A stretch of DNA of 64,000 nt from a virus. The notes beneath the pieces are model-generated. The model made no database searches and was not told where the DNA came from. It was given only the letters and a program-made list of their open reading frames with translations. Both the position numbers and the translations under genes were made by a program. The stretch spans positions 1 through 64,000 of IMG/VR virus record IMGVR_UViG_3300008267_000013, one strand, 5' to 3'. Below, one piece after another: positions 49,901 through 64,000 of this stretch; the stretch's first letter is position 1; each line of letters begins with the position of its first letter.

Positions 49901-50101
49901 ATGACAATTAGGAATAGCGCTATATGTTTAGAATGCAATACAGAAGTGGAGAGTAAACACCGCCATGACTACGTTAGATGCCCTTGTGGTAATGTTGCTG
50001 TTGATGGCGGTAAGGATTACTTTAAACGTTCTGTACGAAACGTTGCAATGTTTAAAGACACAAGTATCTGTGAAGCCAGAGGGGACAATGGAACTAACTG
50101 A
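49901..50101 (+). CDS. Small Zn-finger phage protein
   Basis: CLEC...ESKHRHDYVRCPCGNVAVDGG. Confidence 0.65.
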   Translation: MTIRNSAICLECNTEVESKHRHDYVRCPCGNVAVDGGKDYFKRSVRNVAMFKDTSICEARGDNGTN

Positions 50102-50334
50102 TAAACAATATTTTTGTTTTACAAACTATACATATGATAAAGAATTTTATGTTATGACCACAAATGCTTCCGAGACAGGTGAATGGGAAACATGCGTATT
50201 TTGTAACGACCCAGTCACAGGTGTCAGGGACTTTGAAAGTTTGGTTGAGCAAATAAGATTCAATTCACAAGATGAAGCAAAACAAATGCATTCTGATGTT
50301 CTTTACAAGTGGAATACACTTGGAGTAGTTTAAA

Positions 50335-50658
50335 AATATAAATGGTAGTTGGCTTAATGGTAGCCATCTTTAATCAGTGAGACAAAATCCCGAGGCGTAT
50401 GCTAGCAATCCAAATACTGGACAGAATGCGAAAGCCCCGAAAAATACTTCTTACGAACCCCGATAGAGTAAGAGGTTATTGTAACAACGGTGTTGTACGT
50501 TTAGTAGGGTAACTGTGGCTAGCTGAGAGGAGGCCCGGGTTGGGGAATGGGACAAATGGACTGACTGAACTAACCACTTCGTTTTAATTAACAGGTGGAG
50601 CCGATAAAAAGGCCGATACAAGTCCATCTCTTAGGTGTAACAACAGGCCATTTATATT
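50335..50658 (+). ncRNA. Candidate ~325-nt structured RNA of unknown class
   Basis: ORF-free, GC-richer gap; 11-bp closing stem AATATAAATGG/CCATTTATATT; several internal helices; terminator follows immediately. Confidence 0.65.
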
Positions 50659-50659
50659 G

Positions 50660-50685
50660 CCCTCCTCGTAAGGGGAGGGTTTTTT
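50660..50685 (+). terminator. Intrinsic terminator
   Basis: CCCTCCTC-GTAA-GGGGAGGG-TTTTTT. Confidence 0.8.
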
Positions 50686-50730
50686 ATTGGTAGCTTGACT
50701 TGATATAGACTACCATGTAGAATGTACCCT

Positions 50731-51351
50731 ATGGAAAACAACATCGTTAACGATCCACAAATTAATGATCGACTCCAGCAGCTTCTACAGAAACCATTAA
50801 CTCCCAAGCATTTAAATGTAATAAAATCATTTAGTGATTTCTGGAGTAAGTATCAATATTTAACTATCAAGCAAGTTTCTTTTCTGGACAATATAGAATC
50901 AAGTTATAATGATGACTATAACTCTTGGAGAGCAAACTTCGGAGATGATAAAAAAGAACTACTAAAGATGGCGGTTAACTATTACCAAAATAGTCAGTAT
51001 TTTATGGAGATTGTAAATAATTATTACATGGACAAAAATTACATTCCAACTCGTAGACAATACGAAAGAATGTGTGAGAATAAGTATGTAAAGCGAGCCA
51101 TAGGATATTACAAGTCTAATCCATTATATGAATTGGGCGACATAATTACTCCTAGAGCTCGTTATCTTTATAAAATAAGCGATACTTTAACCGTAGGTAT
51201 AATCAATAAAATTGGTGAACCTTCGTTTCTAAACGGAACCAGATTGTACGATGTAATGTGGTTAGGCGGAACAAAATTTTCTAAAATGTTTGAGAGAGAA
51301 ATAAAAATTTACAGACACCCCAAAAAGGAGAAGAAAGATGGCACAACGTAA
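50731..51351 (+). CDS. Hypothetical protein with C-terminal GD/KOW-like domain
   Basis: TTGACT-17-TAGAAT 7 nt before ATG 50731; YELGDII. Confidence 0.6.
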   Translation: MENNIVNDPQINDRLQQLLQKPLTPKHLNVIKSFSDFWSKYQYLTIKQVSFLDNIESSYNDDYNSWRANFGDDKKELLKMAVNYYQNSQYFMEIVNNYYMDKNYIPTRRQYERMCENKYVKRAIGYYKSNPLYELGDIITPRARYLYKISDTLTVGIINKIGEPSFLNGTRLYDVMWLGGTKFSKMFEREIKIYRHPKKEKKDGTT

Positions 51352-62907: not shown

Positions 62908-62982
62908 TGGTGCTTTCGGGAAGAGTTGCACTTCCATCACGAACTTTACAAGAGTTGTATTTTGCTATTAAACTACGAAAGC
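62908..62982 (-). tRNA. tRNA-Thr(UGU)
   Basis: GCTTTCG/CGAAAGC acceptor, loop CTTGTAA, T arm GGAAG/CTTCC, ACCA end. Confidence 0.8.
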
Positions 62983-63716: not shown

Positions 63717-64000
63717 TGGTCCCAGCTGAGCGAGTCGAACGCTCAATCCCGTAAGGGCGGTTGATTTTCTTACCACTTCAGCTTTCGCTGCCATCTTTCG
63801 ATGTTTGTGGTCTGGACTATGCCTTCACCTTTTAATCTTTCGATCAGTCAGGTGGGTGCCGTCTAGTCTCTACACGTTCTAGATATTTCTATCTAGCTTC
63901 GCTCGGCGTTGCCAGTTAAGGGTTCACCGAATTTGACACCATTCAGATAGAGGATTTCGCCTCTACTGCTCAATTAAATAAGTCAACTGTGTATGCCATT
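63717..64000 (-). tRNA. tRNA-Leu(UAA), intron-split, 5' end outside window
   Basis: 5' exon ...GTTGACTT, 3' exon AAAATCAAC, long variable arm, GTTCGACTC, ACCA. Confidence 0.85.
63769..63979 (-). mobile_element. 211-nt group I intron (IC3-like) in the anticodon
   Basis: AAATTCGGTGAA, GGCAACGCCGAG, AGAGACTAGACGGCACCCACC, GAAGGCATAGTCC, terminal G; exon CUU pairs with IGS GAG. Confidence 0.9.

What the first reader, a model, noticed from the sequence alone, without database searches (positions are those of the whole stretch)
50335..50685. Large unknown structured RNA with a closed terminal stem
Seen: an 11-bp stem joins 50335-45 to 50648-58, followed directly by a terminator. Internal pairings: GGCT/AGCC, CCCGAGGC/GCCCGGG, GCTAGC/GCTAGC, GC-GAAA-GC, TCTTAC/GTAAGA, ACAAC/GTTGT, ATGGACT/AGTCCAT, CCACT/GGTGG, and a possible pseudoknot TCAGT(50374)/ACTGA(50564). 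ACAGAA, GTAAGAG, GGTAAC, CCCGGGT and GACAAATG occur in the same order as in bacterial RNase P RNA, but the P4 signatures are missing. Inference: a new large phage ncRNA or ribozyme, or a very diverged RNase P-like RNA.
Basis: partly seen in the sequence, partly recalled or inferred. Interest (0 to 1): 0.75.

Follow-up and report, generated by a model that had tools for sequence, protein, structure and literature searches.

The report
Phage copy of ribosome's uL11-binding RNA
This freshwater phage encodes a stand-alone RNA of about 325 nt whose two ends rebuild the piece of 23S ribosomal RNA that binds protein uL11 and docks the translation GTPases, split by an ornate 245-nt insert; it belongs to a large, apparently undescribed phage RNA family that probably imitates that ribosomal site off the ribosome.

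Summary
Window 50335-50658 is a real, non-coding, highly structured RNA, closed by an 11-bp stem and followed by an intrinsic terminator. It is not RNase P-like: no Rfam family matches at E<=10.

I found homologues in related phage contigs, metagenomes and cultured phages (Aeromonas 4_4572, Ralstonia RSP15, Acinetobacter ME3, Pseudomonas Milchi). They share two near-invariant blocks. These blocks are a copy of the 23S rRNA GTPase-associated centre (H42-H44, E. coli 1051-1108), the uL11/thiostrepton domain.

- A member's 5' block hits only 23S rRNA in all 5,426 E. coli genomes, at 94% identity.
- The rRNA base triple 1072.(1092-1099) covaries perfectly across 48 members (U/U-A in 29, C/C-G in 18).
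- The window carries a compensatory C-G at pair 1087-1102.
- A variable arm is inserted between 1090 and 1091. Here it is 245 nt, with covarying helices and a pseudoknot.

The fold identity is shown. The function is inferred: most likely an off-ribosome decoy for uL11, or for factors or toxins aimed at this centre.

I found no description in Rfam 15 or the searchable literature. This scan has already noted the same family many times on other DNA (91 notes, at least 75 genomes). I reached the reading before looking those notes up.

The parts
50302..50331 (+). Weak promoter-like site: TTTACA (50302-07), an 18-nt spacer, then TAGTTT (50326-31). It overlaps the stop codon of the upstream ORF.
   Evidence: Read from the sequence. 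It falls below the threshold of the consensus scan, so this is inference only. Relatives L040 and L041 have a clear TTGACA-17-CATACT before their copy.
50335..50345 (+). P1 5' strand, the analogue of H42. It pairs with 50648-50658.
   Evidence: P1 sequences are unrelated among homologues but always complementary: mean cognate score 24.8 against 13.3 for non-cognate. All 9 P1 pairs show double changes.
50347..50369 (+). H43-like hairpin (E. coli 1058-1080). A1067 is at 50356 and position 1072 (U) is at 50361.
   Evidence: Alignment with E. coli 23S. Pairs 1058-1080 and 1064-1074 covary. Coordinates.
50370..50378 (+). Junction equivalent to 1081-1090 (UUAAUCAGU). Position 1087 is C at 50375.
   Evidence: C50375 pairs with G50646, a compensatory version of the G1087-C1102 pair seen in 46 of 48 members.
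50379..50382 (+). P3 5' strand (GAGA), the base of the inserted arm. It pairs with 50627-50630 (UCUC).
   Evidence: Covaries across the family: GAGA/UCUC, GCGG/CCGC, AGGA/UCCU, GGGA/UCCC, GGCC/GGCC and others.
50389..50539 (+). Domain 1 of the insert:
- P4: 50389-96 with 50533-39.
- P5: 50401-06 with 50518-23.
- Hairpin a: 50410-20.
- P6: 50421-24 with 50513-16.
- GNRA hairpin b: 50428-35.
- P7: 50436-38 with 50507-09.
- Hairpin c: 50448-74.
- Hairpin d: 50481-98.
   Evidence: P4 covariation. P5 is found in all 19 clade members with about 12 different sequences. P6 has about 12 different complementary sequences. Independent MFE folds of the homologues converge on the same layout.
50458..50461 (+). 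Pseudoknot 5' strand (CCCC in the loop of hairpin c). It pairs with GGGG at 50542-50545.
   Evidence: 4 of 4 pairs in the 17 clade members where the loop was located. Compensatory variants are CCCU/AGGG, CUCU/GGAG and ACCC/GGGU. Pairing between molecules cannot be excluded.
50540..50555 (+). Conserved junction UUGGGGAAUGGGACAA after P4. It includes the 3' strand of the pseudoknot.
   Evidence: Nearly invariant in the clade. A natural variant at 50549 (G>A) restores the clade consensus AAUAGGA.
50556..50627 (+). Domain 2 of the insert:
- P9: 50556-62 with 50621-27.
- P10 hairpin: 50574-98.
- P11 hairpin: 50600-13, with conserved loop GAUAAAAA.
   Evidence: The P11 stem covaries (GCC/GGC, GCG/CGU, ACU/AGU). 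P10 covaries (CCA/UGG against GCA/UGC), read from the sequences printed. Domain 2 is replaced or missing in some subclades.
50627..50634 (+). P3 3' strand (UCUC, 50627-30) and linker UUAG (50631-34).
50635..50647 (+). H44-like hairpin (1091-1100) plus positions 1101-1103. U1092 is at 50636, A1095 at 50639, A1099 at 50643 and G1102 at 50646.
   Evidence: The 1092-1099 pair is U-A in 29, C-G in 18 and U.G in 1 of the 48 members, always matching position 1072.
50648..50658 (+). P1 3' strand.
50659..50685 (+). Intrinsic terminator: a 9-bp stem, loop GUAA and a T run.
   Evidence: Natural variants 50666 T>C (U.G becomes C-G) and 50669 T>A (loop GUAA becomes GAAA) keep or strengthen the hairpin.

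Best explanation
Window 50335-50658 encodes a stand-alone RNA of the phage 'GAC-mimic' family.

**Fold.**
- Its 5' part (P1 strand, H43-like hairpin, junction) and its 3' part (H44-like hairpin, P1 strand) together rebuild the GTPase-associated centre of 23S rRNA (E. coli 1051-1108). This is the compact domain that binds ribosomal protein uL11 and meets EF-G and EF-Tu.
- A 245-nt arm is inserted between positions 1090 and 1091. The arm is lineage-specific and highly structured, and it is braced by a pseudoknot.

**Most likely mechanism.** The RNA is made during infection and folds like the rRNA domain. Away from the ribosome it captures what normally recognises that domain.
- The prime candidate is free or exchanging host uL11, whose complete binding site the RNA reproduces. 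Loss of uL11 from ribosomes would blunt uL11-dependent responses such as RelA activation.
- The inserted arm stabilises the fold or carries a second, lineage-specific binding function.

**Shown:** homology to the GAC, conservation of its secondary and tertiary pairings, non-coding status, and wide occurrence in phages.

**Inferred:** expression, uL11 binding, and the consequence for the host.
For: **A real family.** Homologues occur in 5 of 16 related phage records, including both records that are at least 90% complete. They also occur in IMG/VR and metagenome contigs and in cultured phages of Aeromonas, Ralstonia, Acinetobacter and Pseudomonas, always in unannotated gaps. I tabulated 48 distinct cores of 90-354 nt.

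**Identity with the GAC.**
- A member's 5' block hits only features annotated '23S ribosomal RNA' in 5,426 of 5,426 E. coli genomes. Identity is 94% over 36 nt, with a median of 7 places per genome.
- The E. coli sequence was read from L168.
- Members share 32-44 of 49 core positions with E. coli. The window shares 32.

**Tertiary-fold signature.** Position 1072 and the pair 1092-1099 occur only as U/U-A (29), C/C-G (18) or U/U.G (1), never mixed. This matches the base triple known for the rRNA domain (from my own knowledge of Conn, Gutell and Draper, 1998).

**Pairs kept by compensatory change.**
- 1058-1080: A-U in 35 and G-C in 5. E. coli has U-A.
- 1064-1074: C-G in 43 and A-U in 5.
- 1087-1102: G-C in 46, C-G in the window and A-U in L100.

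**Overall covariation.** 87.2% of cells are paired against 68.0% in shuffles. The covariation score is 0.515 against 0.173 (0 of 500 shuffles as high), and slid controls give 0.10-0.18.

**uL11 contact sites.** 12 of the 17 nucleotides listed as the uL11 C-domain interface (1058-1060, 1062-1065, 1075-1083, 1088; PMC1802607) are invariant in all 48 members. A1067 is kept in all 48 tabulated cores, and A1095 in all but four.

**No phage uL11 or bL12.** None is encoded in G000, G012, G016, RSP15 or ME3, so any uL11 partner would be the host's.

**An RNA gene.** 25 of 48 members lie within 100 nt of a same-strand tRNA or tmRNA, and 41 of 48 lie within 3 kb.
Against: - No binding or expression data exist. 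No RNA-seq run holding the sequence was listed.
- The 58-nt domain is interrupted by the arm between 1090 and 1091. Whether uL11 still binds was not tested.
- The window copy is the most diverged from rRNA of the 48 (32 of 49 positions). Its H43 loop differs at 1068-1070, and it lacks one junction nucleotide.
- uL11 already assembled in ribosomes may not be titratable within one infection cycle.
- The large, elaborately conserved insert suggests more than a passive sponge.
- Unlike most members, the window copy has no tRNA within 3 kb.
Confidence: 0.55

Rival explanations
1. The fold is the same, but the target differs. The RNA is a decoy substrate or competitor for an enzyme, toxin or antibiotic that attacks the GAC on ribosomes. 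It would protect translation in the infected cell from an abortive-infection or competitor effector, for example an ADP-ribosyltransferase.
For: A toxin with this target exists. Tre23 ADP-ribosylates H44 (bases 1095-1098) of the GAC and blocks the EF-G GTPase (PMC8661411). The H44 loop and A1095 are kept in nearly all members. Decoy logic is common in phage counter-defence (my own knowledge).
Against: No anti-phage defence system is known to target the GAC; Tre23 is an interbacterial T6SS effector. Ribosomes greatly outnumber any decoy unless the RNA is very abundant. Conservation is strongest at the uL11 C-domain interface, not only at the H44 loop.
Confidence: 0.2
2. The RNA is an off-ribosome platform for translation factors or tRNA. 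With or without uL11 and the uL10-bL12 stalk, the mimic would bind EF-G, EF-Tu-tRNA, RelA or tRNA elbows. This would sequester or redirect them, with the insert tethering a second partner.
For: On the ribosome the GAC contacts the translational GTPases (PMC8661411; PMC1802607). The genes sit among tRNA and tmRNA genes. The insert is large, conserved within the clade and pseudoknotted. Isolated GAC oligonucleotides were reported to bind EF-G (my own knowledge; not checked here).
Against: Factor binding normally also needs the sarcin-ricin loop. No SRL-like motif (up to 3 mismatches) occurs in any of the 48 cores examined here. Gene clustering with tRNAs may only reflect shared transcription and processing.
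Confidence: 0.15
3. The RNA is a cis-acting leader or attenuator. It would sense uL11 or another ligand and control the downstream gene through the terminator at 50659-50685, as ribosomal-protein leaders that mimic rRNA do.
For: A terminator directly follows P1 in the window. rRNA mimicry by autoregulatory leaders is an established principle.
Against: The terminator does not overlap or compete with the RNA fold. Homologues have no terminator and no common downstream gene, and many are flanked on both sides by tRNA genes. The downstream gene in the window has its own promoter-like site at 50695-50723.
Confidence: 0.04
4. One reading: a diverged RNase P RNA or another ribozyme.
For: Its size, complexity, closed terminal stem and position near tRNA genes in relatives.
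Against: RF00010 finds no match at E<=10 in the whole record, while controls ring. No Rfam ribozyme family matches. The supposed RNase P motifs lie in ordinary covarying helices. The invariant nucleotides are fully explained by the GAC copy.
Confidence: 0.02
5. The RNA is a functionless scrap of host 23S rDNA picked up by the phage.
For: Sequence identity to 23S rRNA.
Against: Only about 50 nt are rRNA-like. The flanks and the insert match nothing in E. coli genomes. H42 is replaced by unrelated but complementary P1 sequences. Compensatory changes and the three-way covariation show purifying selection on the fold in dozens of phage lineages.
Confidence: 0.01

Closest known systems
GTPase-associated centre of bacterial 23S rRNA (top of H42, H43, H44; E. 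coli 1051-1108; the 58-nt uL11/thiostrepton-binding domain)
   Same: - H43 hairpin with a 9-nt loop carrying A1067.
- The junction sequence.
- H44 hairpin with A1095.
- Pairs 1058-1080, 1064-1074, 1087-1102, 1091-1100 and 1092-1099.
- The 1072.(1092-1099) three-way covariation.
- A closing helix in place of H42.
- Members share 32-44 of 49 core positions with E. coli.
   Different: - It is free-standing in a phage genome, not part of a 23S gene.
- The H42 sequence is replaced by arbitrary complementary strands.
- An arm of about 35 to 300 nt is inserted between 1090 and 1091 (245 nt here).
- U1101 is replaced by A.
- The window copy has a changed H43 loop (1068-1070) and one junction nucleotide fewer.
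Ribosomal-protein autoregulatory leaders that mimic rRNA sites (e.g. the L10 leader, RF00557)
   Same: An RNA outside the ribosome imitates an rRNA protein-binding site.
   Different: The leaders are cis-acting mRNA segments of bacterial r-protein operons and usually loose mimics. This RNA is a trans-encoded phage gene, a near-exact copy that includes tertiary pairs. It has no r-protein gene downstream.
Large ornate phage ncRNAs found near tRNA genes (GOLLD, ROOL)
   Same: Phage-borne and large, with multiple helices and pseudoknots, often beside tRNA genes, and of unknown function.
   Different: It matches no Rfam model of these families. Its conserved core is explained by rRNA mimicry, which is not the case for GOLLD or ROOL.
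Bacterial RNase P RNA (RF00010/RF00011)
   Same: Similar size, 5' and 3' ends paired in a terminal helix, and a link with tRNA genes.
   Different: No covariance-model match, no P4 pseudoknot signatures, and a different helix topology.

Membership tests
23S rRNA GTPase-associated centre fold (uL11-binding domain) | H43 hairpin with a UUAGAAGCA-type 9-nt loop carrying A1067, on the stem 1058-1064/1074-1080 | tested here: met
   Window 50347-50369, with A1067 at 50356. The stem pairs are conserved or covary. The loop differs from E. coli at 1068-1070 in the window and is identical in many other members.
23S rRNA GTPase-associated centre fold (uL11-binding domain) | H44 hairpin (1091-1100) with A1095 | tested here: met
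   Window 50635-50644, with A1095 at 50639. G1091-C1100 is invariant, and 1092-1099 is U-A or C-G.
23S rRNA GTPase-associated centre fold (uL11-binding domain) | Tertiary base triple 1072.(1092-1099), seen as three-way covariation | tested here: met
   U/U-A in 29, C/C-G in 18 and U/U.G in 1 of 48, with no mixed state. The window has U50361 with U50636-A50643.
23S rRNA GTPase-associated centre fold (uL11-binding domain) | Lower H44 pair 1087-1102 and a closing helix (H42) | tested here: met
   1087-1102 is G-C in 46, C-G in the window (50375-50646) and A-U in one. P1 is complementary in every member.
23S rRNA GTPase-associated centre fold (uL11-binding domain) | A contiguous 58-nt domain inside a 23S rRNA gene | tested here: not met
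   A 245-nt insert lies between 1090 and 1091. There is no rRNA flank and no LSU rRNA match in the window. The insert has no match in E. coli genomes. It is therefore a mimic, not an rRNA gene.
23S rRNA GTPase-associated centre fold (uL11-binding domain) | Binds uL11 (and thiostrepton) | not testable with these tools
   Indirect only: 12 of 17 uL11 C-domain interface nucleotides are invariant in 48 members.
Phage GAC-mimic RNA family (no published name found) | The 5' block (A/G)GUNGGCUUANNNG(Y)AGCCAUC..UAANNAGU and the 3' block UUURG(Y)GUANNA(R)CAC, joined by P1 and split by an arm that starts with a 4-bp helix | tested here: met
   The window matches both blocks and the arm helix GAGA/UCUC.
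Phage GAC-mimic RNA family (no published name found) | Lies beside same-strand tRNA or tmRNA genes | tested here: not met
   25 of 48 members lie within 100 nt of such a gene, but the window copy has none within 3 kb. It has its own terminator and a weak promoter-like site instead. This is a usual trait of the family, not a defining one.
RNase P RNA (RF00010) | Covariance-model match, and the P4 helix with CR-I/CR-V sequences | tested here: not met
   No match at E<=10 in the whole record, while 11 of 14 controls ring. No RNase P match in the E<=10 scan of 50200-50800.
tmRNA, group I intron, GOLLD, ROOL and other Rfam families | Covariance-model match | tested here: not met
   Relatives carry a separate canonical tmRNA next to the RNA.

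The most novel reading that the evidence does not exclude
The RNA is a two-part adaptor rather than a passive sponge. In this reading, the GAC module recruits host uL11 (perhaps with the uL10-bL12 stalk) into a free 'mini factor-binding site'. That site traps translational GTPases or RelA. The ornate, lineage-specific insert binds a second partner or joins copies into an oligomer; its loop-c/GGGG pairing could be intermolecular, as in ROOL and GOLLD cages. Phages would thereby reprogramme translation or silence the stringent response with a piece of imitation ribosome.
Probability: 0.15. Interest if true: 0.95.

Novelty: categorically new. Interest (0 to 1): 0.85.

Why it matters
**What is new.** Phages are known to carry tRNAs, tmRNAs and a few ribosomal proteins. 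I could not find a free-standing phage copy of a functional centre of ribosomal RNA in Rfam 15 or in the searchable literature.

**Why it is likely to be important.** The family is widespread in large phages, including cultured phages of Acinetobacter, Aeromonas, Pseudomonas, Ralstonia and probably Xanthomonas. It is under strong selection for the rRNA tertiary fold.

**What would follow if it binds uL11 or GAC-directed factors.**
- It would reveal a new way for viruses to manipulate translation or the stringent response.
- It would give a natural set of circularly closed, insertion-tolerant GAC variants for structural work.
- It would explain many unannotated gaps in phage tRNA regions.

**What this member adds.** It shows how far the core can drift (32 of 49 positions) while keeping every tested pairing. 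It also carries one of the largest inserts.

Tried and rejected
**Known RNA families.**
- The Rfam gathering scan of the window, and E-value scans of the locus and of seven homologous loci, gave no family on the RNA.
- ARAGORN found no tRNA or tmRNA here.
- RF00010 gave nothing on the whole record.

**Finding homologues.**
- blastn of the window RNA against GenBank phages found no match. The family was only reached with a less diverged member.
- Searches with the flanking proteins gave only one distant locus without the RNA.
- A motif scan of 185,579 bacterial and archaeal species genomes gave 14 hits, all chance matches lacking the other blocks. The pattern was specific to the window clade, so absence of the wider family from cellular genomes was not tested.
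- The two 'Staphylococcus phage SA ... Kay' hits turned out to be true 23S rRNA fragments, not mimics.

**Partners and related motifs.**
- uL11 and bL12 genes were absent from five carrier phages.
- No SRL-like motif was found in the 48 cores.
- The insert has no match in E. coli genomes, rRNA included.

**Expression and papers.**
- In the sequencing-run search no RNA holder was listed, so there is no evidence on expression either way.
- Literature searches for a phage GAC or rRNA mimic, and for the sequence itself, found nothing.

**Ideas considered and dropped.**
- A tRNA with an intron: there is no T arm, and the stem is 11 bp.
- A second tmRNA: relatives have a canonical one next door.
- A Y RNA or SRP Alu domain: the resemblance was only from memory.
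- A pseudoknot between the junction UCUUUUAA and the P11 loop GAUAAAAA. It has one compensatory case (L029/L099), but L065 contradicts it and short forms lack P11. It is left open.

**Not attempted.** A covariance model of the full RNA, because 330 positions would exceed the calibration limit. Complex prediction takes no RNA chains, so it was not used.
Full report
**1. The observation**

Positions 50334-50721 form the only sizeable gap in a run of tightly packed + strand genes. The 11-bp stem 50335-45/50648-58 and the terminator 50659-85 are present. On its own the sequence folds only modestly better than shuffles (z = -2.2 on the + strand and -1.7 on the - strand). A single-sequence fold therefore could not settle the matter.

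Rfam 15 gives nothing here, either at gathering thresholds or at E<=10. ARAGORN finds nothing. RF00010 (RNase P) finds nothing in the whole 87.8-kb virus record, while it rings in 11 of 14 control genomes.

**2. Homologues**

The phage has a DnaE-type polymerase, GroEL, a primase-helicase and a GH19 endolysin. Twenty-four related IMG/VR contigs were found through the polymerase.

- blastn of the RNA against 16 of those records gave colinear matches in five, including both records that are at least 90% complete.
- Motif scans of IMG/VR and of metagenome contigs added more.
- Together these gave 19 distinct sequences of the window's clade, 276-389 nt as extracted, flanks included.
- No frame stays open across them, and their lengths differ by non-multiples of three.

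In relatives the gene sits inside tRNA arrays or directly after a tmRNA. The surrounding order is syntenic: GH19 endolysin, then a tmRNA or tRNA, then the RNA, then small ORFs, then the prohead protease.

**3. The decisive step**

A less diverged clade member (L028) was searched against GenBank phages. It matched, over its 5' block only (86-94% identity over 36-45 nt), in cultured phages of unrelated hosts:

- Aeromonas phage 4_4572
- Ralstonia phage RSP15
- Acinetobacter phage ME3
- Pseudomonas phages Milchi and Astolliot

Xanthomonas phage XaC1 matched later over the 5' block alone, at 80% identity, and was not examined further. In the four loci I fetched (4_4572, RSP15, ME3, Milchi) the match lies in an unannotated gap near tRNA genes, and the 3' block and a closing stem are also present.

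An exact 18-mer of the 5' block occurs in 48 IMG/VR stretches, all carrying the full motif. Conservation of this kind across phages of unrelated hosts pointed to a universal cellular partner.

I then recognised the blocks as the uL11-binding GTPase-associated centre (GAC) of 23S rRNA and tested that idea with tool-provided sequence:

- The 5' block of the Aeromonas phage member hits only features annotated '23S ribosomal RNA' in 5,426 of 5,426 E. coli genomes, at 94% identity over 36 nt and a median of 7 places per genome.
- The E. coli segment read from L168 aligns base for base with the family's two blocks.
- Members share 32-44 of 49 core positions with E. coli. The window shares 32, the lowest.

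The E. coli numbering used here is the standard one, taken from established knowledge (A1067 and A1095; cf. PMC1802607). The coordinates of the RefSeq annotation are offset by four.

**4. Does the family keep the GAC fold?**

I tabulated 48 distinct cores and aligned them as A3.

| Feature | Observation |
|---|---|
| Pair 1058-1080 | A-U in 35, G-C in 5 (E. coli has U-A) |
| Pair 1064-1074 | C-G in 43, A-U in 5 |
| Pair 1091-1100 | invariant G-C |
| Pair 1092-1099 | U-A in 29, C-G in 18, U.G in 1 |
| Pair 1087-1102 | G-C in 46, C-G in the window (C50375-G50646), A-U in L100 |
| 1072 with 1092-1099 | U/U-A in 29, C/C-G in 18, U/U.G in 1, never mixed |

- The three-way link of 1072 with 1092-1099 is the behaviour expected of the rRNA base triple (my own knowledge of Conn, Gutell and Draper, 1998). 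A secondary-structure accident would not produce it.
- On A3 the named structure (P1, H43, 1087-1102, arm helix, H44) has 87.2% of cells paired against 68.0% in shuffles. The covariation score is 0.515 against 0.173 (0 of 500 shuffles as high), and slid controls give 0.10-0.18.
- Twelve of the 17 nucleotides listed as the uL11 C-domain interface (PMC1802607) are invariant in all 48 members, although only 23 alignment columns are invariant in total.
- The family differs from rRNA in three ways. H42 is replaced by arbitrary complementary strands (P1). U1101 is A. An arm is inserted between 1090 and 1091 behind a 4-bp helix that covaries freely. With this arm, cores range from 90 to 354 nt.

**5. 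Anatomy of the window copy** (coordinates)

*GAC-like core*
- P1: 50335-45 with 50648-58.
- H43-like hairpin: 50347-69, with A1067 at 50356 and U1072 at 50361.
- Junction: 50370-78.
- H44-like hairpin: 50635-44, with A1095 at 50639.

*Inserted arm*
- Arm helix P3: 50379-82 with 50627-30.
- P4: 50389-96 with 50533-39.
- P5: 50401-06 with 50518-23.
- Hairpin a: 50410-20.
- P6: 50421-24 with 50513-16.
- GNRA hairpin b: 50428-35.
- P7: 50436-38 with 50507-09.
- Hairpin c: 50448-74.
- Optional hairpin d: 50481-98.
- Pseudoknot: CCCC 50458-61 with GGGG 50542-45.
- Domain 2: P9 50556-62 with 50621-27, P10 50574-98, P11 50600-13.

*After the RNA*
- Terminator: 50659-85.

Support within the clade:
- P4 covaries.
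- P5 is present in all 19 sequences with about a dozen different sequences.
- P6 likewise.
- The pseudoknot forms 4 of 4 pairs in the 17 clade members where the loop was located, with compensatory variants.
- The P11 stem covaries.
- MFE folds of the separate homologues converge on the same layout.
- Short forms (L045, L062) lack P10 and P11, so domain 2 is dispensable.

The insert has no similarity to E. coli rRNA. No SRL-like motif occurs in the 48 cores.

Contigs of near-identical strains in freshwater metagenomes carry few changes. Those in the terminator (50666 T>C, 50669 T>A) keep or strengthen it. 50577 C>T turns a C-G pair into U.G. 50549 G>A restores the clade consensus. Depth rises several-fold over 50344-50390 only, because other family members or rRNA in the same samples match the conserved block.

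**6. What it does**

*Shown:* it is an RNA gene that copies the GAC, including its tertiary pairs. It is phage-borne, widespread and under selection.

*Inferred:* it acts off the ribosome on something that recognises the GAC.

- I rank host uL11 first (about 0.45-0.55). The 58-nt domain is the complete uL11 site, the interface nucleotides are the invariant ones, and carrier phages encode no uL11 or bL12 of their own. A plausible pay-off is loss of uL11-dependent signalling such as RelA activation (established knowledge). This step is speculative.
- Rival: a decoy for GAC-directed toxins. Tre23 shows such enzymes exist (PMC8661411).
- Rival: a platform for translation GTPases, RelA or tRNA.
- Rival: a cis-acting attenuator. 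This is contradicted by the contexts of homologues.
- The RNase P or ribozyme reading and the 'dead rDNA scrap' reading are contradicted by the data.

**7. Novelty**

No Rfam 15 family matches. No paper was found for a phage GAC or rRNA mimic, or for the sequence itself. Subscription journals are not covered by those searches.

After reaching this reading I looked up this scan's own notes. The same family has been reported on other DNA many times: 91 notes in at least 75 genomes, with the same interpretation. These are unchecked AI notes and not independent evidence, but they agree with what I tested here.

**8. Verdict**

The thing is a diverged, large-insert member of an apparently undescribed family of phage RNAs that imitate the ribosome's uL11-binding GTPase-associated centre.

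Noticed in passing
window 63789-63990 (-) and 62911-62982 (-): A group I intron (Rfam 51.4 bits, just above the gathering score of 50) and a tRNA-Thr(UGU) lie on the minus strand near the window's end. Earlier notes of this scan describe group I introns inside several tRNAs of this phage.
   Followed up: no
window 49901-50101 (+): The small ORF two genes upstream of the RNA is a DUF7695 protein (Pfam E = 3e-20) with CxxC...CxC motifs. A similar small Cys-rich ORF lies upstream of the RNA in relative L027.
   Followed up: partly
L169 (OR845016.1, 'UNVERIFIED_ORG: Staphylococcus phage SA 1306 Kay', a 2,991-nt record): This GenBank 'phage' record reads as genuine Staphylococcus-type 23S rRNA around the GAC, continuous with flanking rRNA sequence. 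It looks like host rRNA contamination rather than phage DNA, and it is not a member of the mimic family.
   Followed up: partly
L170 929-1060 (Pseudomonas phage Milchi, PQ464597.1 79028-79159, minus strand): An annotated 'hypothetical protein' CDS lies antisense over that phage's GAC-mimic RNA, directly before tRNA-Met. It is probably a spurious gene call.
   Followed up: no
L121 about 1830-2045 (Ralstonia phage RSP15): Directly after the RSP15 mimic lies an RNA of about 215 nt with paired ends and a canonical T arm. Rfam gives only a partial tmRNA match (E = 3.8e-5) and nothing is annotated there. It may be a small or unusual tmRNA or tRNA-like gene.
   Followed up: no
L054 4728-5283, with homologues in L045, L047, L052, L053 and L062: In one subclade the RNA is followed by one or two paralogous small proteins of about 90-100 aa with a conserved WNYR(V/I) motif (phrog_21321, function unknown). 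Next come an 80-95-aa protein with a W.NE..F..(F/Y)E(E/N)A motif and the prohead protease. The window has none of these directly downstream.
   Followed up: partly
window 50344-50390: In freshwater metagenome contigs laid on the locus, summed depth rises from about 4-7 to 20-35 over this block alone. Several other family members (or rRNA) coexist in the same samples.
   Followed up: partly
window 50695-50723: A good sigma-70-like promoter (TTGACT, 17 nt, TAGAAT; 10 of 12 matches) lies right after the RNA's terminator. It serves the 209-aa gene at 50722-51351, which has no family assignment.
   Followed up: no
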